The position numbers and the translations under genes were made by a program. Of a stretch of DNA of 52,707 nt, positions 1,631 to 40,730 are shown in pieces. The number at the start of each line of letters is the position of its first letter. The stretch's first letter is position 1. The stretch comes from Candidatus Staskawiczbacteria bacterium. Its GTDB lineage: Bacteria > Patescibacteriota > Minisyncoccia > Minisyncoccales > Staskawiczbacteraceae. The notes below the pieces were generated by a model. It was given only the letters and a program-made list of their open reading frames with translations. It ran no database searches and was not told the DNA's origin. Where the stretch lies: the NCBI GenBank assembly GCA_903885445.1, contig CAISIO010000044.1, forward strand, positions 1 to 52,707, read 5' to 3'.

Positions 1631-2254
1631 ATGGCAGAAGAAACAAAAAAAACAAATGACGGCTTTGTACCAATTCCTACCGGAGAAACACCCGTTCAAC
1701 AGACTCCAAGAGGAGGATTTGGCGGGCAAGGACAAAGAAACAGCGGCGGATTTGGCCAGCAAAGAAGGCCGGGTTTTGGCAGGGCCGGATTTGGAAGAGA
1801 CAGGCAGAAAGATGAATTCCAGACAAAACTTTTGGATTTAGCCAGGGTTACCAGGGTAACCGGCGGAGGAAAAAGGATGAGTTTTAGAGCTGTTGTGGTT
1901 GCCGGAGACAAAAAAGGGAAAGTTGGAATTGGAATAGATAAAGGAAAAGACGTTTCACAAGCCATTGAAAAGGCCACCAGACGCGCGAAAAAGGACCTAA
2001 TTAGCGTTATTATTGTTGATGGGACTATTCCTCATGAAGTTGAGGCGAAATCAGGACCGGCTGTGATTTTATTGAAACCGCAAATGAAAGGAAGAGGTTT
2101 GGTTGCCGGAGGGGCAGTTAGGACAATTTGTGATTTAGCCGGAATTAAAAACGTTTCTTCAAAAATTCTTTCAGGATCAAAAAATAAATTAAACAATGCC
2201 AGAGCAACGATAGAAGCGTTAAAGAAATTAAAGGCTCCGAAAAAAGCTAAATAG
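1631..2254 (+). CDS. rpsE: 30S ribosomal protein S5 with Gly/Arg/Gln-rich N-terminal extension
   Basis: Core LLDLARVTRVTGGGKRMSFRAVVVAGDKKGKVGIGIDKGKDV is preceded by about 60 aa of RGGFGGQGQRNSGGFGQQRRPGFGRAGFGR. Confidence 0.95.
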   Translation: MAEETKKTNDGFVPIPTGETPVQQTPRGGFGGQGQRNSGGFGQQRRPGFGRAGFGRDRQKDEFQTKLLDLARVTRVTGGGKRMSFRAVVVAGDKKGKVGIGIDKGKDVSQAIEKATRRAKKDLISVIIVDGTIPHEVEAKSGPAVILLKPQMKGRGLVAGGAVRTICDLAGIKNVSSKILSGSKNKLNNARATIEALKKLKAPKKAK

Positions 2255-2260
2255 AAAAAC

Positions 2261-2695
2261 ATGCAAATCCACGAATTAAAACCAAAACATAAAAACAGGA
2301 CTAAAAGGAGAGTCGGCAGAGGAGGAAAGAAAGGAACTTATTCTGGAAAGGGAATAAAAGGACAGAACTCCAGGGCAGGTAGGAAAATGGAGCCGATAAT
2401 CAGGTCTCTCATAAAAAGATATCCTAAATTAAAAGGATACAGGAGTTTTAGATTTGATAATGACTTCGCGGTCGTGAATCTTGATGTTTTGGAAAAAAAC
2501 ACAAAAGACGGTGAAACAATAAATCCGGAAAATTTGATTAAAAAGGGCATAATCAGTAATATAAAAGGAAAGACCCCGAAAGTTAAGATTTTGGGAACCG
2601 GGAAGATCACAAAAAAATTAGTTTTTGAAAATTGCAAAACATCTAAGACCGCGAAAGATGCGATCGAAAAAGCAGGGGGTTCTGTAAAAATTTAA
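2261..2695 (+). CDS. rplO: 50S ribosomal protein L15
   Basis: ELKP...RVGRGGKKGTYSGKGIKGQNSRAG motif. Follows rpsE after a 6-nt gap, so there is no rpmD. Confidence 0.93.
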   Translation: MQIHELKPKHKNRTKRRVGRGGKKGTYSGKGIKGQNSRAGRKMEPIIRSLIKRYPKLKGYRSFRFDNDFAVVNLDVLEKNTKDGETINPENLIKKGIISNIKGKTPKVKILGTGKITKKLVFENCKTSKTAKDAIEKAGGSVKI

Positions 2696-3984: not shown

Positions 3985-4001
3985 CATAATAATTTTCCAA
4001 A

Positions 4002-4021
4002 CCGCCGAAAGGCGGTTTTTT
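4002..4021 (+). terminator. intrinsic terminator after secY
   Basis: CCGCC-GAAA-GGCGG hairpin (GNRA loop) followed by TTTTTT. Confidence 0.7.
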
Positions 4022-4033
4022 ATTTGCTAAGGG

Positions 4034-4064
4034 TTGACATTTGGTCAGAAAGATTTATTATTAT
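4034..4064 (+). promoter_or_regulatory. sigma70-like promoter of GC-rich cassette A
   Basis: TTGACA at 4034-4039 and TATTAT at 4059-4064 (19-nt spacer; ATTATT at 17 nt). GC content rises just downstream. Confidence 0.45.
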
Positions 4065-4121
4065 ATCAACACGCAGGTTTCGTTTTTTTGACAACCGCAA
4101 CCCCTTTCGTGAGGCTAAACC

Positions 4122-4640
4122 ATGAGGCTCAACCGAATCTCGGTATTGTTTATTCTTGTAGCCGTAGGCGTCACTCTTCTGTCTGGCGGGCGAATTCAGC
4201 GCTGGGTCGCTGAAGAAGGAGTGATGGCTCAACCGGTAGCTTTGAGCGCCACTAGTACCATCCTCGCAATGGATGGACTCGATGGCAACAGTACAGTGTG
4301 CTATATCCTGACGAAGGAAACCCGGGAGAAGAACGAGTCCGGGTGGATATGGGAGTTTCGTACCTTGGAGAGCGGCAAGGTAAAGTCCGTCTTCATCAAC
4401 CATAGCCAGTTTATGGACAAGAGCCTGCAGAAGAAGCTCGAATCCCTCGGAATTGGTTATGAAAAGGGCATGCTGGGCGGAGGTCTAGCTCCCTCCAAGA
4501 GCAAGTCTGAATTGCTGCCAGTTCCCGGAAGGAAGCTGCTGGCTTTCAAGGTTGGTTCTGACGGCAAGGCTACGACCATCGTAACTAGGCCAGACGGAAC
4601 AATCCGCCGACGTGGGGTTAATTTTGTTACCGCTAATTGA
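4122..4640 (+). CDS. hypothetical N-terminally membrane-anchored or secreted protein on GC-rich cassette A
   Basis: 172-aa ORF. GAGG at 4111-4114 lies 7 nt before the ATG. N-terminal hydrophobic helix RISVLFILVAVGVTLLSGG. G/C-rich codons unlike neighbours. No family recognised. Confidence 0.6.
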   Translation: MRLNRISVLFILVAVGVTLLSGGRIQRWVAEEGVMAQPVALSATSTILAMDGLDGNSTVCYILTKETREKNESGWIWEFRTLESGKVKSVFINHSQFMDKSLQKKLESLGIGYEKGMLGGGLAPSKSKSELLPVPGRKLLAFKVGSDGKATTIVTRPDGTIRRRGVNFVTAN

Positions 4641-4728
4641 TAGCGGCAGGTGCCAAATTCTTTCATCGGATGAGGCGCTCTTTTTTTTGGGAGTAAATTA
4701 TGATATACTTTTAAAATAATTAAAATTT

Positions 4729-14086: not shown

Positions 14087-14461
14087 ATGAAAAAAGCAGT
14101 AGAAAAAATACAAAGGAAAATTATCACATTGGATGCGGAAAACAAACCCTTGGGCAGATTGGCTGTCGAGGTTGCTGTTTCGCTTCGCGGGAAAAACAAG
14201 CCCAGCTATGTTCCATATAAAGATATGGGAGACACTGTTATAGTGAAAAATATTGAAAAAATGATTTTTACCGGAAATAAACTGGAAAACAAAAATTATT
14301 TTCATTTCACAGGATACATAGGAAATTTGAAAAAAACAACCTTAAAAGAATTTTTAATTAAGAAGGGCCCTAAAGAAGTTTTAAGAACCGCAGTGATGGG
14401 GATGCTTTGCAAAAATAAATTACGAGCAAAACAAATTAAAAGGTTAAGATTTGAAAAGTAA
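14087..14461 (+). CDS. rplM: 50S ribosomal protein L13
   Basis: LGRLAVEVAVSLRGKNKPSYVPYKDMGDTVIVKN; precedes rpsI. Confidence 0.93.
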   Translation: MKKAVEKIQRKIITLDAENKPLGRLAVEVAVSLRGKNKPSYVPYKDMGDTVIVKNIEKMIFTGNKLENKNYFHFTGYIGNLKKTTLKEFLIKKGPKEVLRTAVMGMLCKNKLRAKQIKRLRFEK

Positions 14462-14462
14462 C

Positions 14463-15050
14463 ATGCCAGAGAAAAAAACAACAACCAAAAAAACAGTGAA
14501 AAAGCCGGAAGAAAAGCCAGCTATTGTTGAAGTTGCAGAAATAAAAGTAGAGATAAAGGCCCCGGTTTATGTTGCTCCACAGGATCCTCTGGAAAAAATT
14601 GAGGACGATAATATTTCAGAGGAAATTGCAAAGGCTATAAAAGAAACAGCCGGCAAGCCCGACAGGTATTTTGAAGCAATCGGAAGAAGGAAAACCGCTG
14701 TTGCAAGGGTAAGGCTTTACACGAAAGGCGACAAGGAATTTATTGTAAACGACCAGCCATACATAAAATATTTCCAGACAACAGAAGACCAGGAGTCCGC
14801 CGTTTGTTCAATGTAAAAAATGAAATGTTTAGATACGTTCAGGGTAACGGTTGTTGTGAAAGGCGGAGGACACAGGGCGCAAGCAGAGGCAATAAGGCAC
14901 GGAACAGCCAGGGTGTTGGTAGATTTCAATGCAAACTTTAGAAAGAGATTGAGAAAAGCAGGTTTCCTAACAAGAGACCCAAGGATGAGAGAAAGAAAGA
15001 AATTCGGACTAAAGAGAGCAAGGAAATCCCCGCAGTGGGCAAAGAGGTAA
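14463..15050 (+). CDS. rpsI: 30S ribosomal protein S9, interrupted by an in-frame TAA at 14814-14816 (two ORFs, same frame)
   Basis: N-part has [19 protein letters not shown]-part has [23 protein letters not shown]...[30 protein letters not shown]. Both ORFs are in one frame, reading ...CSM*KMKC.... YF-to-GGG spacing equals E. coli S9 if the stop counts as one residue. About 60-aa Lys/Glu-rich N-terminal extension. Confidence 0.85.
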
Positions 15051-15085: not shown

Positions 15086-15113
15086 TTGACTTTTGAATTT
15101 GTTGGAGTAGATT
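15086..15113 (+). promoter_or_regulatory. sigma70-like promoter of GC-rich cassette B
   Basis: TTGACT 15086-15091, 16-nt spacer, TAGATT 15108-15113. Confidence 0.45.
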
Positions 15114-15162
15114 TAAATAAGAACCAAGCCAACCTGGTCTTGTCATTTTGAGGAGACAAACC

Positions 15163-15528
15163 ATGCCAGACAAGTATAGGAGCCGGTTTCGTCCTTTGGG
15201 GCTCTCGGGCACTCCGAGATGTCCGTATTGTGGCCAGCCGATGGTACCGTCAGATGACCATGGCAATTACGCCTGCTTTTGCCAAGGACTGAAGTACTTT
15301 GGCTCTGATAGCGTAGAGTTGAGAACGCCCCGGATTCGGCAGGTGGATACGGCGGGGATGACCAACGCGCAGAAGGCGAAAGTTGACCCGATACATCGGC
15401 TCCATTCTGCGCCAACTGCGGCGGAGCAGAAGCTCCTTGATCTTATGTTGAAGGGGCCTGGAGCTATGGATGACCCGGAGTACACCAAGGCACTTGAGGA
15501 TGTGGCGAAAGAGCGTGGTGGAGGCTGA
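15163..15528 (+). CDS. hypothetical small protein with putative zinc ribbon (cassette B, ORF1)
   Basis: GAGGAG 15150-15155 lies 7 nt before the ATG at 15163 (the ORF-track start 15148 is a TTG). CPYC-x14-CFC motif. 121 aa with G/C-rich codons. Confidence 0.55.
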   Translation: MPDKYRSRFRPLGLSGTPRCPYCGQPMVPSDDHGNYACFCQGLKYFGSDSVELRTPRIRQVDTAGMTNAQKAKVDPIHRLHSAPTAAEQKLLDLMLKGPGAMDDPEYTKALEDVAKERGGG

Positions 15529-15755
15529 TGGATTGGTCCCTTACCAATTTGGAGGAAACTATGCCAGATAACAAGCATTCTGGGTCGACACTTGCGTTGA
15601 CTTTGATCTCGCCTTCGTTGAACGACGAGCCACGCGAAGGGCAAAGGGTTAAACCTCTTGGCCAGAAGACTACAGCCAAGGGCTGGGTCAAAGGACTTTG
15701 TCGCCCTGCATCAAGGGCCAGCCGGCTCAAGAAGCTTGGTGGCGGACCCGTTTAA
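15528..15755 (+). CDS. hypothetical small basic protein (cassette B, ORF2)
   Basis: ATG overlaps the ORF1 stop (TGATG). Alternative start at 15561 sits behind GGAGG 15551-15555. Lys/Arg-rich C-terminus. A weak hairpin plus T7 follows at about 15757-15779. Confidence 0.45.
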   Translation: MDWSLTNLEETMPDNKHSGSTLALTLISPSLNDEPREGQRVKPLGQKTTAKGWVKGLCRPASRASRLKKLGGGPV

Positions 15756-15815
15756 CCACAGCGGGCTGTTTTTTTGCGGATTTGCACAAAATTTTTAAAG
15801 TGATAAAATGTTAGT

Positions 15816-31807: not shown

Positions 31808-33505
31808 ATGGCAAAGGAAAAGAAGGTCGCCAAGAAAATTAAAAGGGCTAAGGTTTTAAAACCGACAAAGAGCAGGAAAATTTTGGTTAAGAAAAAAATA
31901 AATAAAATAAAAAAAACCGTTCGGCGAGTTCAGGGCAGGCAAAAAAATAAAATTATAAAGAAGGCTGTTTTGAAAACTAAGCAAAAGAAGGCTGTAAAAA
32001 AATTAGTTAAAAAACTAACTCCAAGAAAGGTTGTTGCTCATAAAGGAAAAAAACATATTACAAGGCGCACGAAAATTAATCCGGCAGAAGAGTTTCCGGC
32101 GCAGTCTTTTTTTAAAGCGAAAATCAAGGTTATCGGAATTGGCGGGGGCGGAGGGTCTATAGTCTCTGAGATTGGCAGGTCGCTTGAAAAAGCAACCTTT
32201 GTTATTGCCGACACAGATGTGCGCGTTTTAAAAAAGAAGTCAGGAATAAAATATTTTTGGTTTGGCCAAGATTTAACGCATGGCTTGGGAACAGGAGTTA
32301 ACGTGGACTTGGCAAAACAAGCCGCAGAGTCTGCTAAAGAAAAAATCAGCAGTATTTTTAAAGACCAGGATATTATAATTTTTGTCGCCTCATTGGGCGG
32401 GGGATTAGGGTCTGGCGCCACGCAGGTTTTTGCGGAAGCAGCAAGAGAATTCGGCGGAATCACTTTTGGCATATTCACAATGCCCTTTAAGTTTGAAGGG
32501 AAGAATAAATATCGCATTGCTCAAAACGCTTTGCGTGCTTTGCGACAGTCGTTGAATGTTTCGCTGGTAATTCCTAACGAAAAGATTTTTAAAGTTATTG
32601 ACGAAACAACGCCAATTACAAACGCCTTTTCAATAGTCAATAAAAGCTTGATGGAATCTTTGGAGAGCTTGATAGACCTGATTTACAACCCGGGGATTAT
32701 AAACATCGATTTCGCTGATTTGCGGACAATTTTAAGAGGCAGGGGAAGTTCGGCCTTTCTAAACACCGTTGAAGAATCGGGAAAAGACAGGATAGAAAAA
32801 ATTTGTGAAAATATTTTTAAGAATCCTCTATTGCAGAGCAGTAATCTTTGCGCCGAGAAAATTTTATTTAATATTTCCGGAGGAGAAAATCTTTCAATGT
32901 TTGAAGTGGAAAAAATCAGCAGCCGCATAGCCGAGCAGAATCAAAAAGCGAAGATTATATTTGGAATCTCCAAAAATCCAAAATTAAAAAATAAAATAAA
33001 AACAACGATCTTGATGACTGGCGGGCAAATCAGTGATGCGGAAGAAGACTTGCCTGCGCATGCGGGAAAAATAGAAGATATAGAGATAAAGCCCGTTTTA
33101 GCCGAAAAAGAAGTTAAGAAAGTTATCGAGCCGGTAAAGGTTGAAACAAAGGCGGAAATTATGGCCACAAAAAAAAGAGAAAAGCCATTGGCGCCGGCGA
33201 GGAAGAAAGAGCCTAAATCCAAAAAGAGAAAAAAACCATTGGTTCCCGTAAAAAAACCGGACAAAAATGCTGAAAAAGCAGTTTCATTTGTTCCTGTTTT
33301 TGAGGTTCCGGTCTCGCCAATTCCCGTATTGGAACAAAGAAGGATTGATGTAATTGAGGCGATGCCAGAATCAGGTAAAAAAACAATCAGGAGAAGCGGC
33401 CTGGAAATCCGTAAAGCCGAAGAGCTTGAGGAAAAAAAGAGATTAGCGCAGGAAAAAGAGTGGGAAATTCCCGCCTTCCTGAGGAAAGTAAAATTTAAGA
33501 GTTAA
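31808..33505 (+). CDS. ftsZ: cell division protein FtsZ with about 100-aa Lys-rich N-terminal extension
   Basis: IKVIGIGGGGGSIVSEI, SLGGGLGSGATQVFAE (variant of GGGTGTG), NIDFADLRTIL and the C-terminal peptide EIPAFLRK. Confidence 0.88.
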   Translation: MAKEKKVAKKIKRAKVLKPTKSRKILVKKKINKIKKTVRRVQGRQKNKIIKKAVLKTKQKKAVKKLVKKLTPRKVVAHKGKKHITRRTKINPAEEFPAQSFFKAKIKVIGIGGGGGSIVSEIGRSLEKATFVIADTDVRVLKKKSGIKYFWFGQDLTHGLGTGVNVDLAKQAAESAKEKISSIFKDQDIIIFVASLGGGLGSGATQVFAEAAREFGGITFGIFTMPFKFEGKNKYRIAQNALRALRQSLNVSLVIPNEKIFKVIDETTPITNAFSIVNKSLMESLESLIDLIYNPGIINIDFADLRTILRGRGSSAFLNTVEESGKDRIEKICENIFKNPLLQSSNLCAEKILFNISGGENLSMFEVEKISSRIAEQNQKAKIIFGISKNPKLKNKIKTTILMTGGQISDAEEDLPAHAGKIEDIEIKPVLAEKEVKKVIEPVKVETKAEIMATKKREKPLAPARKKEPKSKKRKKPLVPVKKPDKNAEKAVSFVPVFEVPVSPIPVLEQRRIDVIEAMPESGKKTIRRSGLEIRKAEELEEKKRLAQEKEWEIPAFLRKVKFKS

Positions 33506-38632: not shown

Positions 38633-39626
38633 AATTGCTATAAACGGCTTTGGGCGAATTGGGCGGCAAGTTTTCAAACATATTGAGGGGTCGCACCCGG
38701 ATTTGGAGGTTGTTGCGATAAACGACTTAACAGACACAAAAACCCTGGCTCATCTTTTAAAACACGATTCTACTTACGGAAACTACGGCAAAGAAATAAT
38801 CGCCAAAGAAAAATCAATTATTGTTGCTGGAAAAGAAGTGCCGGTTTTGGCCGAGAAAGATCCGGAAAAACTACCGTGGAAAGATTTGGGCGTAGACATA
38901 GTTTTGGAATGCACCGGATTCTTTACCGATGACGCCGGCGCAAGAAAACATATTAAAGCTGGAGCAAAAAAAGTTATAGTTTCAGCTCCCTGCAAGGATT
39001 TGCCGGGATTTGTTTTAGGTGTTAACGCTGACACGCTTGATATTGGAAAGGTTGACGTGATGGATATGGGTTCTTGTACTACAAATTGTTTAGCTCCAAT
39101 TGCAAAGGTTTTAAATGACGAATTTGGAATTGTAAAAGGTTTTATGACAACGGTTCACAGTTATACAAATGACCAGAAGGTTTTGGATTTGCCTCATAAA
39201 GACTTGAGAAGGGCAAGAGCCGCGGGATTGAACATTATCCCGACTTCAACCGGAGCCGCAAAAGCCATTGGCAAAATGATTCCTGAATTAAACGGAAAAC
39301 TGGACGGAATTTCTATTAGGGTTCCAACGCCGACTGTCTCTGTTTTGGATTTAATTGTTGAAATTAAAAGAGAAACAACAAAAGAAGAAGTGAACGCGGC
39401 ATTCAAAAAGGCTGCTGCCGAAAAAAACTTCAAAAGAATTTTGAGAGTGGAGGACGAACCGTTGGTTTCAATGGATTTTAAAGGCGATACTTATTCCGCC
39501 ATAATTGATTCGGCAGAAACGATGGTAAATGGAAATATGGTAAAAGTTTTGGGCTGGTACGACAACGAATGGGGATATTCTTGCAGGCTCGCGGAATTCG
39601 CGGAGTTTGTGGGGAAAAAATTGTAA
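38625..39626 (+). CDS. gap: type I glyceraldehyde-3-phosphate dehydrogenase
   Basis: KIAINGFGRIGR, SCTTNCLAP and WYDNEWGYS. Confidence 0.95.
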   Translation: MIKIAINGFGRIGRQVFKHIEGSHPDLEVVAINDLTDTKTLAHLLKHDSTYGNYGKEIIAKEKSIIVAGKEVPVLAEKDPEKLPWKDLGVDIVLECTGFFTDDAGARKHIKAGAKKVIVSAPCKDLPGFVLGVNADTLDIGKVDVMDMGSCTTNCLAPIAKVLNDEFGIVKGFMTTVHSYTNDQKVLDLPHKDLRRARAAGLNIIPTSTGAAKAIGKMIPELNGKLDGISIRVPTPTVSVLDLIVEIKRETTKEEVNAAFKKAAAEKNFKRILRVEDEPLVSMDFKGDTYSAIIDSAETMVNGNMVKVLGWYDNEWGYSCRLAEFAEFVGKKL

Positions 39627-39636
39627 GATAAATTAA

Positions 39637-39663
39637 GAAAAACCTCGACGTACGAGGTTTTTT
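39637..39663 (+). terminator. intrinsic terminator after gap
   Basis: AACCTCG-acgta-CGAGGTT followed by TTTT. Confidence 0.7.
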
Positions 39664-39678
39664 GTTGGCGTTGAAACA

Positions 39679-39707
39679 TTGACGCACATATTTTGATATG
39701 TTACTAT
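39679..39707 (+). promoter_or_regulatory. sigma70-like promoter of GC-rich cassette C
   Basis: TTGACG 39679-39684, 17-nt spacer, TACTAT 39702-39707. Confidence 0.5.
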
Positions 39708-39770
39708 ATAGCCGTGTTCAAGGCGATGTTTTTTTGTAAGGTAGTCAGCCCTTTTCGAGGAGACCTGATA

Positions 39771-40046
39771 ATGACGGATATGATGTCGGAAAAAGAGATT
39801 GAGAAATTGGTCATCGAAATCGTCGCTGACCAACTCAACATCGACAAGGACGAGATCAGCCGAGCGTCGCGCTTTGTCGATGACCTGAACATCGATCAAC
39901 TGGACGAGGTGGAGCTGGTGATGGAATTCGAGGACGAATTCGAACTTTCCATCCACAGCGATGAGAAGATACGGGAACTAGGAACAGTTGGGGCGGCCAT
40001 AGACTTCGTCAGAGACGAACTCAAAACTCAGGGCCGGCTGACCTAA
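39771..40046 (+). CDS. acyl-carrier-protein-fold protein lacking the phosphopantetheine-attachment serine (DSL -> DQL)
   Basis: GAGGAG 39757-39762 lies 8 nt before the ATG. FVDDLNIDQLDEVELVMEFEDEFELSIHSDEKIRELGTVGAAIDFV aligns to the ACP core L.ADSLD.VELVM..EEEF...I.D.........V.DAV.YI. The Gln codon CAA is at 39897-39899. 91 aa, very acidic. Confidence 0.7.
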   Translation: MTDMMSEKEIEKLVIEIVADQLNIDKDEISRASRFVDDLNIDQLDEVELVMEFEDEFELSIHSDEKIRELGTVGAAIDFVRDELKTQGRLT

Positions 40047-40069
40047 TAGAGAGCGCGCATTGCGTTGAT

Positions 40070-40104
40070 GCCTTGTTGCAATTTTTGTGGCGAGGCTTTT
40101 TTTT
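40070..40104 (+). terminator. intrinsic terminator of cassette C
   Basis: GCCTTG...CGAGGC hairpin followed by TTTTTTTT. An extended -10 (TGaTATAAT, about 40129-40137) for pduL follows. Confidence 0.55.
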
Positions 40105-40145
40105 GCACTTTTTTGTTTTTTTGTTAGGTGATATAATAATTAAAT

Positions 40146-40730
40146 ATGTTTGGAATAAAAAAGATTAAAGTGCCGATTGAAGTTTCGGCCAGGCATTGCC
40201 ATTTATCAAAAAAAAATTTAGAAACGCTTTTTGGCGTAGGATACGAACTGACAAAAATGAAACAGCTATCACAGCCGTCTGATTTTGCTTGCGAAGAAAC
40301 CGTTGATATACAAGTGGGTTCTAAAAAAATTGAACAAGTTAGGATTGTCGGGCCGTTAAGGGAGCAGACGCAGGTTGAAATATCTTTGTCAGATGCAGTT
40401 GGTTCGGGAGCCGTGCCTCCGATACAATTGTCGGGCGAACTGAATGGAACGGGTTCAGTTGTGATTACAGGCCCTCAAGGCACCGTAGAACTGTCCGAGG
40501 GGTTGATTGTGGCTTTACGGCATATCCATTGTGCGACAAGCGAGGCAGGTAAGCTGGGTTTAAAAAACGGCGCTAAGGTCTCTGTCAAGATTGGCGGTGA
40601 AAGGCCAGTTGTTTTTGAAGGCATTATAGTCAGAGTAAAAGACGATTATGATTTTTCTATGCACATAGACACAGACGAAGGAAACGCCGCCGGAATTAAT
40701 AAAATAGGAGAAGGTTTTATTGTAAAATGA
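40146..40730 (+). CDS. pduL: phosphate acyltransferase PduL
   Basis: VEVSARHCHLS and ALRHIHC (duplicated PduL motif); 194 aa. Confidence 0.85.
   Translation: MFGIKKIKVPIEVSARHCHLSKKNLETLFGVGYELTKMKQLSQPSDFACEETVDIQVGSKKIEQVRIVGPLREQTQVEISLSDAVGSGAVPPIQLSGELNGTGSVVITGPQGTVELSEGLIVALRHIHCATSEAGKLGLKNGAKVSVKIGGERPVVFEGIIVRVKDDYDFSMHIDTDEGNAAGINKIGEGFIVK

What the first reader, a model, noticed from the sequence alone, without database searches (positions are those of the whole stretch)
39679..40104. Cassette C: acidic ACP-fold protein whose phosphopantetheine serine is replaced by Gln
Seen: the 91-aa ORF behind TTGACG-17-TACTAT and GAGGAG aligns well to the acyl carrier protein core: ...FVDDLNID-Q-LDEVELVMEFEDEFELSIHSDEKIRELGTVGAAIDFV. 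The invariant Ser of the DSL motif is encoded as CAA (39897-39899), which is two substitutions away from any Ser codon. A single sequencing error therefore does not explain it. Established: the DSL serine is the only 4'-phosphopantetheine attachment site, so this protein cannot carry acyl groups. Inference: it is an apo-locked ACP used as a protein-protein interaction module or an acidic decoy. It sits in a genome type generally reported to lack fatty-acid synthesis. It is one of the three GC-rich cassettes.
Basis: partly seen in the sequence, partly recalled or inferred. Interest (0 to 1): 0.7.

Follow-up and report, generated by a model that had tools for sequence, protein, structure and literature searches.

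The report
Serine-less ACP gene in CPR bacterium
A tiny, lipid-scavenging type of bacterium picked up an acyl carrier protein gene from a planctomycete, lost the one serine that lets the protein carry anything, and still keeps the gene under strong selection, so the protein probably now works only by binding other proteins.

Summary
ORF 39771-40046 (91 aa) is a full-length AcpP homologue (NCBIfam AcpP E 4e-20; AF2 four-helix fold, pLDDT 86). Gln43 (CAA 39897-39899) sits exactly on the phosphopantetheine serine.

The window is from Candidatus Staskawiczbacteria (Parcubacteria/CPR). The gene is a GC3-rich (0.67 against 0.35-0.44) single-gene cassette with its own promoter, Shine-Dalgarno and terminator, inserted between gap and pduL. 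About 20 relatives with the same synteny lack it.

Its nearest relatives (up to 66-70% identity) are housekeeping AcpPs of Phycisphaerae (Planctomycetota), which lie in plsX-fabHDG-acpP-fabF operons. Among 15 billion proteins only one orthologue exists. It is syntenic and carries Glu at the serine site.

dN/dS between the two is 0.10 (p = 5e-9). Helix II is invariant, while the serine site and the loop II/helix III region are remodelled.

Best reading: a horizontally acquired ACP that cannot be modified at the canonical site and is kept as a binding-only protein. This resembles apicomplexan mitochondrial ACP. The partner is unknown.

A second, very divergent ACP-like ORF (Asp at the serine site) occupies the same spacer in another lineage. 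That match is weak.

Verdict: new variant of a known kind, moderate interest.

The parts
39638..39662 (+). Intrinsic terminator of gap (AAAAACCTCG-ACGTA-CGAGGTTTTT). Native sequence that forms the left border of the insertion.
   Evidence: Perfect 10-nt inverted repeat. Relatives with empty sites have a terminator at the same place.
39663..40104 (+). Inserted GC-rich single-gene cassette (about 440 bp). Absent from all syntenic relatives except L001.
   Evidence: The gap-pduL spacer is 66-75 bp in L089, L092 and L096 but 520 bp here. GC is 0.52 against a genome mean of 0.40.
39679..39707 (+). Sigma-70-type promoter TTGACG-17-TACTAT with a TGn extended -10.
   Evidence: L001 has TTGTCG-17-TATATT with TGn at the same position, although the surrounding 100 nt are only 47% identical.
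39757..39762 (+). Shine-Dalgarno GAGGAG, 8 nt before the ATG.
   Evidence: Native genes in the window show no Shine-Dalgarno motif in the 25 nt upstream; the three GC-rich cassettes do.
39771..40046 (+). ORF for the 91-aa serine-less ACP homologue (pI 4.1). The orthologue starts at the position of Met4/Met5.
39897..39899 (+). CAA = Gln43, at the position of the phosphopantetheine-attachment Ser of the DSL motif.
39909..39941 (+). Helix II core V47-F57 (VELVMEFEDEF). Invariant in all 25 aligned sequences. This is the recognition helix of ACPs.
   Evidence: Invariant columns. Helix 46-57 in the AF2 model.
39942..39980 (+). Remodelled loop II/helix III (ELSIHSDEKIREL). It has a one-residue insertion and replaces residues that are at least 90% conserved in canonical relatives (P, E, A, E, K, I).
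   Evidence: nearly invariant columns broken only by P0001 and P0002. (differences between the two orthologues concentrate here).
40070..40104 (+). Terminator-like hairpin plus T8 that closes the cassette.
   Evidence: This stretch is 100% identical in L001.

Best explanation
The gene is a horizontally acquired housekeeping-type acpP. The donor lineage is Planctomycetota, class Phycisphaerae.

It was inserted as a self-contained transcription unit (promoter, Shine-Dalgarno, ORF, terminator) into the gap-pduL spacer of a Candidatus Staskawiczbacteria (Parcubacteria/CPR) genome. That spacer is an insertion hot spot.

In this lineage the phosphopantetheine serine has been replaced (Gln here, Glu in the only orthologue). 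The neighbouring Ala and Thr and the loop II/helix III region, which frames the prosthetic-group and acyl entrance, were remodelled.

The protein can therefore not be loaded at the canonical site and cannot shuttle acyl groups. It is nevertheless kept under strong purifying selection with an unchanged acidic helix II.

So it most likely works stoichiometrically, by docking through helix II onto one or more partner proteins as a structural or regulatory subunit. This is how apicomplexan mitochondrial ACP (Ser replaced by Phe) works with Isd11-Nfs1, and how E. coli AcpP stimulates MukB equally in apo and holo forms.

Shown: homology, fold, missing serine, foreign origin, presence/absence polymorphism, purifying selection, conserved promoter elements.

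Inferred: no modification in vivo, a binding-only function, and the existence of a partner, whose identity is unknown.
For: Family and fold:
- AcpP profile matches at E 4e-20.
- AF2 model with pLDDT 85.8 shows four helices. Foldseek top hits are all AcpP structures, target-normalised TM-score (TMt) about 0.8.
- Gln43 aligns on the Ser column.

Origin:
- The best 80 loci from the scan of the GTDB species-representative genomes (genome contigs) are all Planctomycetota, mostly Phycisphaerae, at 51-66% identity.
- The closest cluster (P0003, 66-70% identity) is named Phycisphaeraceae.
- These relatives lie in plsX-fabH-fabD-fabG-acpP-fabF operons.
- Nucleotide similarity of up to 78% is confined to the ORF.
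- GC3 is 0.68, between the host genome (0.35-0.44) and Phycisphaerae acpP (0.78-0.96).

Recipient and insertion:
- SecY is 92-94% identical to Ca. Staskawiczbacteria.
- grx-gap-pduL-ackA synteny is conserved in about 20 metagenomic relatives, none of which has an ACP. Clean empty sites exist.

Rarity and selection:
- Only one orthologue (P0002/L001) turned up, both in the word-index search of 5.8e9 clusters and in the exhaustive search of 1.84e9 representatives.
- It is syntenic, with NIDEID against NIDQLD here.
- dN/dS = 0.10 from 15 non-synonymous and 26 synonymous differences; binomial p = 5e-9.
- Helix II residues 47-57 are invariant. The Glu residues at +5 and +11 from the Ser site are retained (criterion from PMC8547962).
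- The promoter hexamers, their spacing and the TGn are conserved although the leader has diverged.

Context and precedent:
- No fab, acpS or pls gene was found among the window ORFs scanned.
- CPR are reported to lack lipid synthesis and ACP synthase (PMC7242380; PMC12455944).
- Prosthetic-group-independent ACP functions are documented in PMC8547962 and PMC8602292.
Against: - No partner was identified. Nothing in the neighbourhood points to one. Relatives run gap-pduL-ackA without the gene, so the location looks like a permissive site rather than an operon.
- Only two sequences exist, so the selection estimate rests on one pair.
- The rest of the genome is unseen, so a PPTase, fab genes or a second canonical ACP cannot be excluded.
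- The residue at the serine site is not fixed (Gln or Glu), so it may be merely tolerated rather than functional.
- Expression is inferred from sequence signals only.
Confidence: 0.6

Rival explanations
1. Host-directed decoy. The protein mimics the ACP of the donor lineage, possibly the CPR cell's host. Because it is dead at the serine, it would act as a competitive, non-productive ligand of host ACP-dependent enzymes (FAS II, PlsX, LpxA and others), for example to perturb or tap host lipid metabolism.
For: - Closest relatives are housekeeping AcpPs of one specific lineage, the Phycisphaerae.
- The helix II docking surface is unchanged relative to those donors.
- Glu or Gln at the serine site, and Thr46 changed to Glu, add or keep polar and negative character where the phosphodiester would sit.
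- CPR are thought to take lipids from other cells (PMC7242380; PMC12455944).
Against: - There is no signal peptide or recognisable secretion tag: the ORF starts directly with helix I.
- There is no evidence that Phycisphaerae host this organism.
- Helix III, which also contacts many ACP client enzymes, is remodelled.
Confidence: 0.12
2. The serine was already lost in the donor. The CPR acquired a pre-existing serine-less ACP paralogue, related to the lipoprotein-type Ser-to-Glu ACP-like proteins P0134 and P0140, rather than disarming a housekeeping acpP itself. This concerns the history of the gene and is compatible with the binding-only function.
For: - P0134 and P0140 carry DLKADELDQVELVMELED, with Glu at the Ser site and the Thr also replaced.
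- Neighbour-joining (NJ) trees group them with P0001 and P0002 in 62 of 100 bootstraps.
Against: - Support falls to 42 of 100 when motif columns 41-46 are removed.
- P0001 is 70% identical to canonical P0003 but only 51-53% identical to P0134 and P0140.
- P0134 and P0140 have about 50-aa lipoprotein-like leaders that are absent here.
Confidence: 0.15
3. Functionless passenger: a recently transferred acpP fragment that is decaying in a genome that cannot use it.
For: - Very narrow distribution (two contigs).
- It lies in a hot spot that carries assorted unrelated inserts in relatives.
- The catalytically essential residue is lost.
Against: - dN/dS is 0.10 at dS about 0.75, p = 5e-9.
- The ORF is intact in both lineages, and the promoter elements and terminator are conserved.
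- Helix II is invariant.
Confidence: 0.08
4. It is still a carrier, with the prosthetic group attached elsewhere. One candidate is the new Ser63, in H-S-D here and D-S-D in the orthologue, created by the loop insertion just before helix III. Another is an unknown modification of Gln or Glu.
For: Ser63 is present in both orthologues, where canonical relatives have Pro. In P0002 it is flanked by Asp on both sides, which is superficially like the DSL motif.
Against: - Known PPTases recognise the Ser at the N-terminus of helix II (established knowledge).
- No PPTase was found in the window.
- CPR are reported to lack ACP synthase.
- No precedent is known to me.
Confidence: 0.03
5. Artefact: a sequencing or assembly error, or a chimeric contig joining planctomycete and CPR DNA.
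For: L001 is 100% identical to the window downstream of 40043 but only about 80-85% identical upstream. At least one of the two contigs may therefore be a strain chimera.
Against: - Two independent assemblies show the same gap-ACP-pduL junctions and both lack the Ser, with different codons (CAA and GAG).
- The change needs at least two substitutions.
- The cassette lies between native CPR terminator and promoter sequences.
- GC3 is intermediate, not planctomycete-like.
Confidence: 0.02

Closest known systems
Bacterial housekeeping AcpP (type II FAS acyl carrier protein; TIGR00517/NF002148), specifically that of Phycisphaerae (Planctomycetota)
   Same: - Full-length sequence homology: 56-70% identity, and 71.3 bits on NF002148 against a cutoff of 71.
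- The same four-helix fold.
- An identical helix II (VELVMEFEDEF).
- A similar size and an acidic pI.
   Different: - Ser of the DSL motif replaced by Gln (Glu in the orthologue).
- Ala41 changed to Ile and Thr46 to Glu.
- One-residue insertion and rewritten loop II/helix III.
- C-terminal extension.
- Not in a plsX-fab operon: it is a stand-alone cassette in a CPR genome.
Apicomplexan mitochondrial ACP (P. falciparum mACP with Ser replaced by Phe113; Toxoplasma and Babesia variants with Cys or Gly) - PMC8547962
   Same: - An ACP homologue that cannot be phosphopantetheinylated.
- Retained in a compartment or organism without FAS II and its PPTase.
- The helix II Glu residues at +5 and +11 from the Ser site are kept.
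- The function, demonstrated there and inferred here, is protein binding.
   Different: - That protein is eukaryotic, vertically inherited and essential, with a known partner (the LYR protein Isd11 with Nfs1) and a hydrophobic replacement residue that inserts into the partner.
- This one is bacterial, horizontally acquired and strain-specific, with a polar or acidic replacement and no LYR-type partner known in bacteria.
Prosthetic-group-independent AcpP-MukB interaction in E. coli (PMC8602292)
   Same: A bacterial precedent that ACP can act as a protein cofactor: apo- and holo-AcpP stimulate the MukB ATPase equally.
   Different: - There it is a moonlighting role of the normal, Ser-containing AcpP.
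- MukBEF is not expected in CPR, and no such gene was seen in the window.
Phage 'morons' / autonomous accessory gene cassettes
   Same: - A single ORF with its own sigma-70 promoter and intrinsic terminator.
- Base composition unlike the flanks.
- Inserted between two conserved genes.
- Present or absent among close relatives.
   Different: - It lies on a CPR chromosome, not a prophage.
- No phage genes are nearby.
- The PHROG ACP match (E 1.5e-13) is weaker than the bacterial AcpP match.

Membership tests
Acyl carrier protein, AcpP type (PF00550 / TIGR00517 / NF002148) | Sequence match to the family profile over the full length | tested here: met
   NF002148 at 71.3 bits (cutoff 71). TIGR00517 at 70.4 bits (cutoff 70.45, marginally below). 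PF00550 at 29 bits (cutoff 20.8)..
Acyl carrier protein, AcpP type (PF00550 / TIGR00517 / NF002148) | Four-helix ACP fold | tested here: met
   AF2 pLDDT 85.8 with helices 7-22, 46-57, 66-70 and 73-86. Foldseek top 50 hits are all ACP chains, target-normalised TM-score (TMt) 0.74-0.87.
Acyl carrier protein, AcpP type (PF00550 / TIGR00517 / NF002148) | Conserved Ser of the D-S-L motif as the 4'-phosphopantetheine attachment site | tested here: not met
   Gln43 (CAA) occupies the column. The orthologue has Glu..
Acyl carrier protein, AcpP type (PF00550 / TIGR00517 / NF002148) | Genomic association with FAS II or lipid genes (plsX, fabH, fabD, fabG, fabF) | tested here: not met
   The neighbours are grx, gap, pduL and ackA. 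None of the window ORFs scanned is a fab, pls or acpS gene. Donor-type relatives do sit in the fab operon.
Acyl carrier protein, AcpP type (PF00550 / TIGR00517 / NF002148) | A cognate holo-ACP synthase (AcpS/Sfp) in the genome, and actual acyl carriage | not testable with these tools
   Only 52.7 kb of the genome is available. The window's own contig is not in the look-up collection. The literature says CPR lack ACP synthase (PMC7242380).
Phosphopantetheine-independent ACPs (apicomplexan mACP type) | Attachment Ser replaced by a residue that cannot be modified, in an otherwise conserved ACP | tested here: met
Phosphopantetheine-independent ACPs (apicomplexan mACP type) | Retained under selection despite loss of the carrier function | tested here: met
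   dN/dS 0.10, p = 5e-9, from one orthologue pair.
Phosphopantetheine-independent ACPs (apicomplexan mACP type) | Helix II acidic residues used for partner docking retained (Glu at +5 and +11 from the Ser position) | tested here: met
   E48 and E54 are present and invariant. The criterion is taken from PMC8547962.
Phosphopantetheine-independent ACPs (apicomplexan mACP type) | Binds an LYR-motif protein (Isd11) and stabilises the cysteine desulfurase Nfs1 | not tested
   No LYR-family or cysteine desulfurase gene was seen in the window.
Autonomous accessory cassette (moron-like) | Own promoter and terminator, deviant composition, presence/absence polymorphism between conserved flanking genes | tested here: met
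   The same architecture holds for cassettes A and B.
Integron gene cassette | attC recombination site at the 3' end, a promoterless ORF, and an integrase or attI nearby | tested here: not met
   The inverted-repeat scan found only the two terminator hairpins. The ORF has its own promoter. No integrase was found among the window ORFs scanned.

The most novel reading that the evidence does not exclude
Staskawiczbacteria repeatedly capture ACP genes from other bacteria into the gap-pduL hot spot and 'disarm' them at the attachment serine. Examples would be Gln or Glu here and Asp in the unrelated, opposite-strand ACP-like ORF P0326 of another lineage. The dead carriers would serve as host-mimicking ligands that interfere with, or tap, the lipid-synthesis machinery of the cells these lipid-auxotrophic epibionts live on.
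Probability: 0.07. Interest if true: 0.85.

Novelty: new variant of a known kind. Interest (0 to 1): 0.55.

Why it matters
ACP is the textbook example of a protein whose function is its prosthetic group. The only studied exception is the apicomplexan mitochondrial ACP.

This would be a bacterial counterpart with a clear history: a foreign housekeeping acpP, in an organism without fatty-acid synthesis, that lost the serine, rebuilt the prosthetic-group entrance and kept the docking helix under purifying selection.

It gives a natural 'apo-locked' ACP for asking what ACP does besides carrying acyl groups. It also points to a possible donor-recipient (perhaps host-symbiont) link between Phycisphaerae and a Parcubacteria lineage. 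Finally, it exposes a class of small, self-expressed, GC-rich foreign cassettes in a CPR genome that otherwise lacks Shine-Dalgarno sequences.

Its weight is limited by rarity (two sequences) and by the unknown partner.

Tried and rejected
- Looking up the window's own proteins (ACP, PduL, GAPDH) in the contig index returned nothing. The source genome could therefore not be scanned for acpS or fab genes.
- Sequencing error or alternative alignment: rejected. Three alignments agree, and the orthologue has a different non-Ser codon.
- Phage origin: the PHROG ACP match is weaker than the bacterial AcpP match.
- Integron cassette: no attC-like repeat was found and the ORF has its own promoter.
- Structured leader RNA: no Rfam match in 39500-40300 reached its gathering score; the best was E 0.15.
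- Common leader shared by cassettes A, B and C: the alignment is gappy, about 58% identical and AT-rich, and L001's leader differs. I treat this as shared architecture, not homology.
- Operon link to pduL-ackA: rejected as the main reading. About 20 relatives lack the gene, and other relatives carry unrelated inserts at the same place.
- Second ACP-like ORF (P0326): Pfam finds nothing and the single-sequence AF2 model is uninformative at pLDDT 41. It has no homologues in 5.8e9 clusters. It stays 'probable' on NCBIfam E 2.5e-5, hhalign E 2.6e-4, and being the only extra hit of an ACP HMM among 2156 six-frame segments.
- Common ancestry with the lipoprotein-type Ser-to-Glu ACPs: bootstrap support is 62, falling to 42 without the motif columns, so it is unresolved.
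- Supplementary tables of PMC12455944 searched for the reported acpP transfer into Patescibacteria: no hit in the files held.

Full report
**1.

The + strand carries an ORF from ATG 39771 to TAA 40044-40046, encoding 91 aa. GAGGAG (39757-39762) lies 8 nt upstream of the start.

A promoter-like site, TTGACG-17-TACTAT with a TGn extension, is at 39679-39707. A terminator-like hairpin at 40070-40096 is followed by T8.

Codon 43 is CAA (39897-39899). The nearest serine codon is two substitutions away.

The protein matches AcpP profiles over its full length. NF002148 gives E 4e-20 at 71.3 bits against a cutoff of 71. TIGR00517 gives 70.4 against 70.45. Pfam PP-binding gives 29 bits against 20.8.

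phmmer against PDB aligns '...FVDDLNIDQLDEVELVM...' to '...FVDDLGADSLDTVELVM...', which puts Gln43 on the attachment serine. In an alignment of 245 ACP domains from the best database hits, that column is Ser in 212.

An AlphaFold2 model (pLDDT 85.8) has the four ACP helices, with Gln43 just before helix II. All of the top Foldseek hits in the PDB are ACP chains (target-normalised TM-score, TMt, about 0.8).

**2. The genome and where the gene sits**

SecY of the window is 92-94% identical to proteins named Candidatus Staskawiczbacteria, which belongs to the Parcubacteria group of the Patescibacteria/CPR.

The window holds ribosomal-protein operons and a glycolysis and acetate-fermentation set. 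That set includes TIM, enolase, PGM, GAPDH, PduL, AckA, a PEP-utilising enzyme, PfkB and FBA. No fab, pls or acpS gene was found among the ORFs scanned.

CPR bacteria are reported to be unable to make membrane lipids and to lack ACP synthase (PMC7242380; PMC12455944).

The ORF is compositionally foreign. Its GC3 is 0.67, against 0.29-0.45 for the native genes.

It is one of three such units. The others are 4122-4640 and 15163-15528, the latter followed by a small second ORF. All three start with a TTGAC-type promoter directly after a terminator. All three carry a GAGG(AG) Shine-Dalgarno, although the native genes of this genome show no Shine-Dalgarno motif in the 25 nt upstream.

**3. Origin**

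A scan of 185,579 species genomes returned 80 best loci. All are Planctomycetota, mostly Phycisphaerae, at 51-66% identity.

The closest protein cluster (P0003, 66-70% identical) is annotated Phycisphaeraceae.

These relatives are ordinary housekeeping AcpPs in plsX-fabH-fabD-fabG-acpP-fabF clusters.

Nucleotide similarity of up to 78% is confined to the ORF.

GC3 of the CPR copies (0.68-0.69) lies between the CPR background and the Phycisphaerae genes (0.78-0.96).

An acpP transfer from other prokaryotes into Patescibacteria has been listed before, without comment on the serine (PMC12455944).

**4. Distribution**

Only one close homologue was found, both by the word-index search of 5.8 billion clusters and by an exhaustive phmmer search of 1.84 billion representatives. 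This is P0002, at 84% identity and E 6e-37. The next hits are canonical ACPs.

Its contig (L001, 1.1 kb) has the same gap-ACP-pduL arrangement.

P0002 has Glu (GAG) at the serine site and Ile for the following Leu (NIDEID against NIDQLD). It shares the Ala-to-Ile and Thr-to-Glu changes, the one-residue insertion before helix III and the C-terminal extension.

The serine was therefore already gone in the common ancestor of the two.

**5. A cassette in a hot spot**

Using PduL as a probe, I fetched 42 metagenomic loci. About 20 of them show grx-gap-pduL-ackA synteny, and none encodes the ACP.

Several have a 66-75 bp spacer made of the gap terminator and the pduL promoter, which represents an empty site.

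Others carry unrelated GC-rich inserts of 0.6-2.8 kb at the same place. These include a radical-SAM protein, HEAT-repeat and membrane proteins, and a pair of homologous 103- and 115-aa ORFs.

Position next to pduL-ackA is therefore better read as a permissive insertion site than as an operon link.

Cassette A is likewise absent from the closest relative, where secY directly abuts adk.

**6. Is the gene alive?**

Between the two orthologues there are 26 synonymous and 15 non-synonymous differences. This gives dS 0.75, dN 0.077 and dN/dS 0.10. Under neutrality that split has p = 5e-9.

All of this divergence postdates the loss of the serine.

The constraint has a pattern. Helix II (V47-F57) is invariant in all 25 aligned sequences.

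The columns that are at least 90% conserved and broken only by the serine-less pair fall in two patches. One is residues 41-46, around the attachment site. The other is residues 58-70, loop II and helix III, which in canonical ACPs frame the prosthetic-group and acyl entrance. The differences between the two orthologues concentrate in those same patches.

The promoter's -35 element, 17-nt spacing, TGn and -10 element are kept in L001, although the surrounding 100 nt are only 47% identical.

**7. Mechanism**

Shown: a foreign AcpP, lacking its only canonical attachment site, is maintained by selection with its docking helix intact.

Inferred: it is not modified in vivo, and it acts by binding one or more partners.

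There are two precedents. Plasmodium mitochondrial ACP (Ser replaced by Phe) binds Isd11-Nfs1 without a prosthetic group, and it keeps the helix II glutamates at +5 and +11. Both are present here as E48 and E54 (PMC8547962). E. coli MukB is stimulated equally by apo- and holo-AcpP (PMC8602292).

I put 0.6 on this binding-only reading, with the partner unknown.

A host-directed decoy is a more specific and more speculative version (0.12). The donor-like helix II and the polar or acidic replacements fit it, but there is no export signal and helix III is changed.

The lower-ranked rivals are:
- A decaying passenger (0.08). This is contradicted by the dN/dS value.
- A relocated attachment site at the new Ser63 (0.03).
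- An artefact (0.02).

**8. Open points**

(a) A 101-aa ORF (P0326) lies on the opposite strand of a 1-kb GC-rich insert in the same gap-pduL spacer of a more distant lineage. It weakly but consistently resembles ACP:
- NCBIfam AcpP at E 2.5e-5, plus three further AcpP models.
- An ACP as the top PDB hit.
- hhalign at E 2.6e-4.
- It is the only additional hit of an ACP HMM among 2156 six-frame segments of all the CPR DNA fetched.

Asp aligns with the serine.

Against this, Pfam finds nothing, the single-sequence AF2 model is uninformative, and the ORF has no homologues. If it is real, two independent serine-less ACPs at one hot spot would raise the interest markedly.

(b) Other serine-less ACP-like proteins exist in metagenomes: the lipoprotein-type P0134 and P0140 with DELD, and the third domain of an Alistipes protein. 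Whether the first two share ancestry with the CPR pair is unresolved. Bootstrap support is 62, or 42 without the motif columns.

(c) L001 is 100% identical to the window from 40043 onward but only about 80-85% identical upstream. This is either a recombination breakpoint inside the cassette or a strain chimera in one of the assemblies.

**9. Verdict**

The 'interaction module or decoy' part is plausible but untested.

It is a new variant of a known kind, a prosthetic-group-independent ACP that is here bacterial, horizontally acquired and strain-specific. Interest is moderate at 0.55.

Noticed in passing
window 3985-4728 (ORF 4122-4640): Cassette A. This is a 744-bp insert between secY and adk containing a terminator, a TTGACA-16-TATTAT promoter, a GAGG Shine-Dalgarno and a GC-rich ORF. 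The ORF is 172 aa (GC3 0.60), has a hydrophobic N-terminus and gives no Pfam, PHROG or NCBIfam match. In the closest relative (L137, SecY 94% identical) the secY stop directly abuts the adk ATG.
   Followed up: partly
window 15086-15775 (ORFs 15163-15528 and about 15562-15755): Cassette B. It sits after rpsI and its terminator. It has a TTGACT-16-TAGATT promoter, a GAGGAG Shine-Dalgarno, a 121-aa Cys-rich ORF (GC 0.56), a second small Shine-Dalgarno-led ORF and a terminator. No family match was found.
   Followed up: partly
window, 25 nt upstream of all called starts: The native genes have AT-rich upstream regions without a Shine-Dalgarno motif. The three GC-rich cassettes do carry one, so they bring foreign-style translation signals.
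   Followed up: partly
L093/L094 (= L131:2810-3115), gap-pduL spacer of a related lineage: A 101-aa orphan ORF (P0326, GC3 0.69) lies on the opposite strand with its own TTGACA promoter. It is weakly ACP-like, with Asp at the serine position (FDADDFDRFTLGSEIEDRF). It appears as an identical sequence in 8 contigs from several samples.
   Followed up: partly
L099, L109, L095, L102 and L110, between gap and pduL: The gap-pduL spacer is an insertion hot spot carrying unrelated GC-rich inserts of 0.6-2.8 kb. These include homologous 103- and 115-aa ORFs (L109, L099), a 209-aa membrane protein (L095), HEAT-repeat and coiled-coil proteins (L102), and a radical-SAM protein with two other ORFs (L110).
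   Followed up: partly
window 40043 / L001 476: There is a sharp identity break between the window and L001. Identity is about 80-85% through the gap 3' end, leader and ACP ORF, then 100% over the remaining 635 bp (terminator, pduL promoter, pduL). This is either recombination between strains or a chimeric assembly.
   Followed up: partly
window 39652-39667 and 40090-40108: The cassette is bracketed by similar terminator 3' halves: CGAGGTTTTTTG on the left and CGAGGCTTTTTTTTG on the right. Cassettes A and B show a comparable left/right resemblance (AGGCGGTTTTTT and AGGCGCTCTTTTTTTT; AGCCGGTTTTTT and AGCGGGCTGTTTTTTT). This could be a target duplication or just generic terminator features.
   Followed up: no
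P0134, P0140, P0086 (database proteins, not in the window): Metagenomic ACP-like proteins with lipoprotein-type leaders carry Glu in place of the attachment Ser (DLKADELDQVELVMELED). An Alistipes-type lipoprotein has three ACP domains, and the third has Asp-Glu in place of Asp-Ser. Serine-less, probably extracytoplasmic ACP domains therefore appear to recur in bacteria.
   Followed up: partly
window 14451-15048 (stop at 14814-14816): rpsI (ribosomal protein S9, with a Lys-rich N-terminal extension) is interrupted by an in-frame TAA (...[23 protein letters not shown]...) next to an A6 run. It could be a sequencing error, a split gene or readthrough.
   Followed up: no
window 2254-2261: rpsE is followed directly by rplO with no rpmD (L30) between them. 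As I recall, absence of L30 is typical of CPR genomes.
   Followed up: no
window 31808-33505: The FtsZ homologue has a Lys/Arg-rich N-terminal extension of about 100 aa before the tubulin/FtsZ GTPase domain, which starts at residue 105.
   Followed up: no
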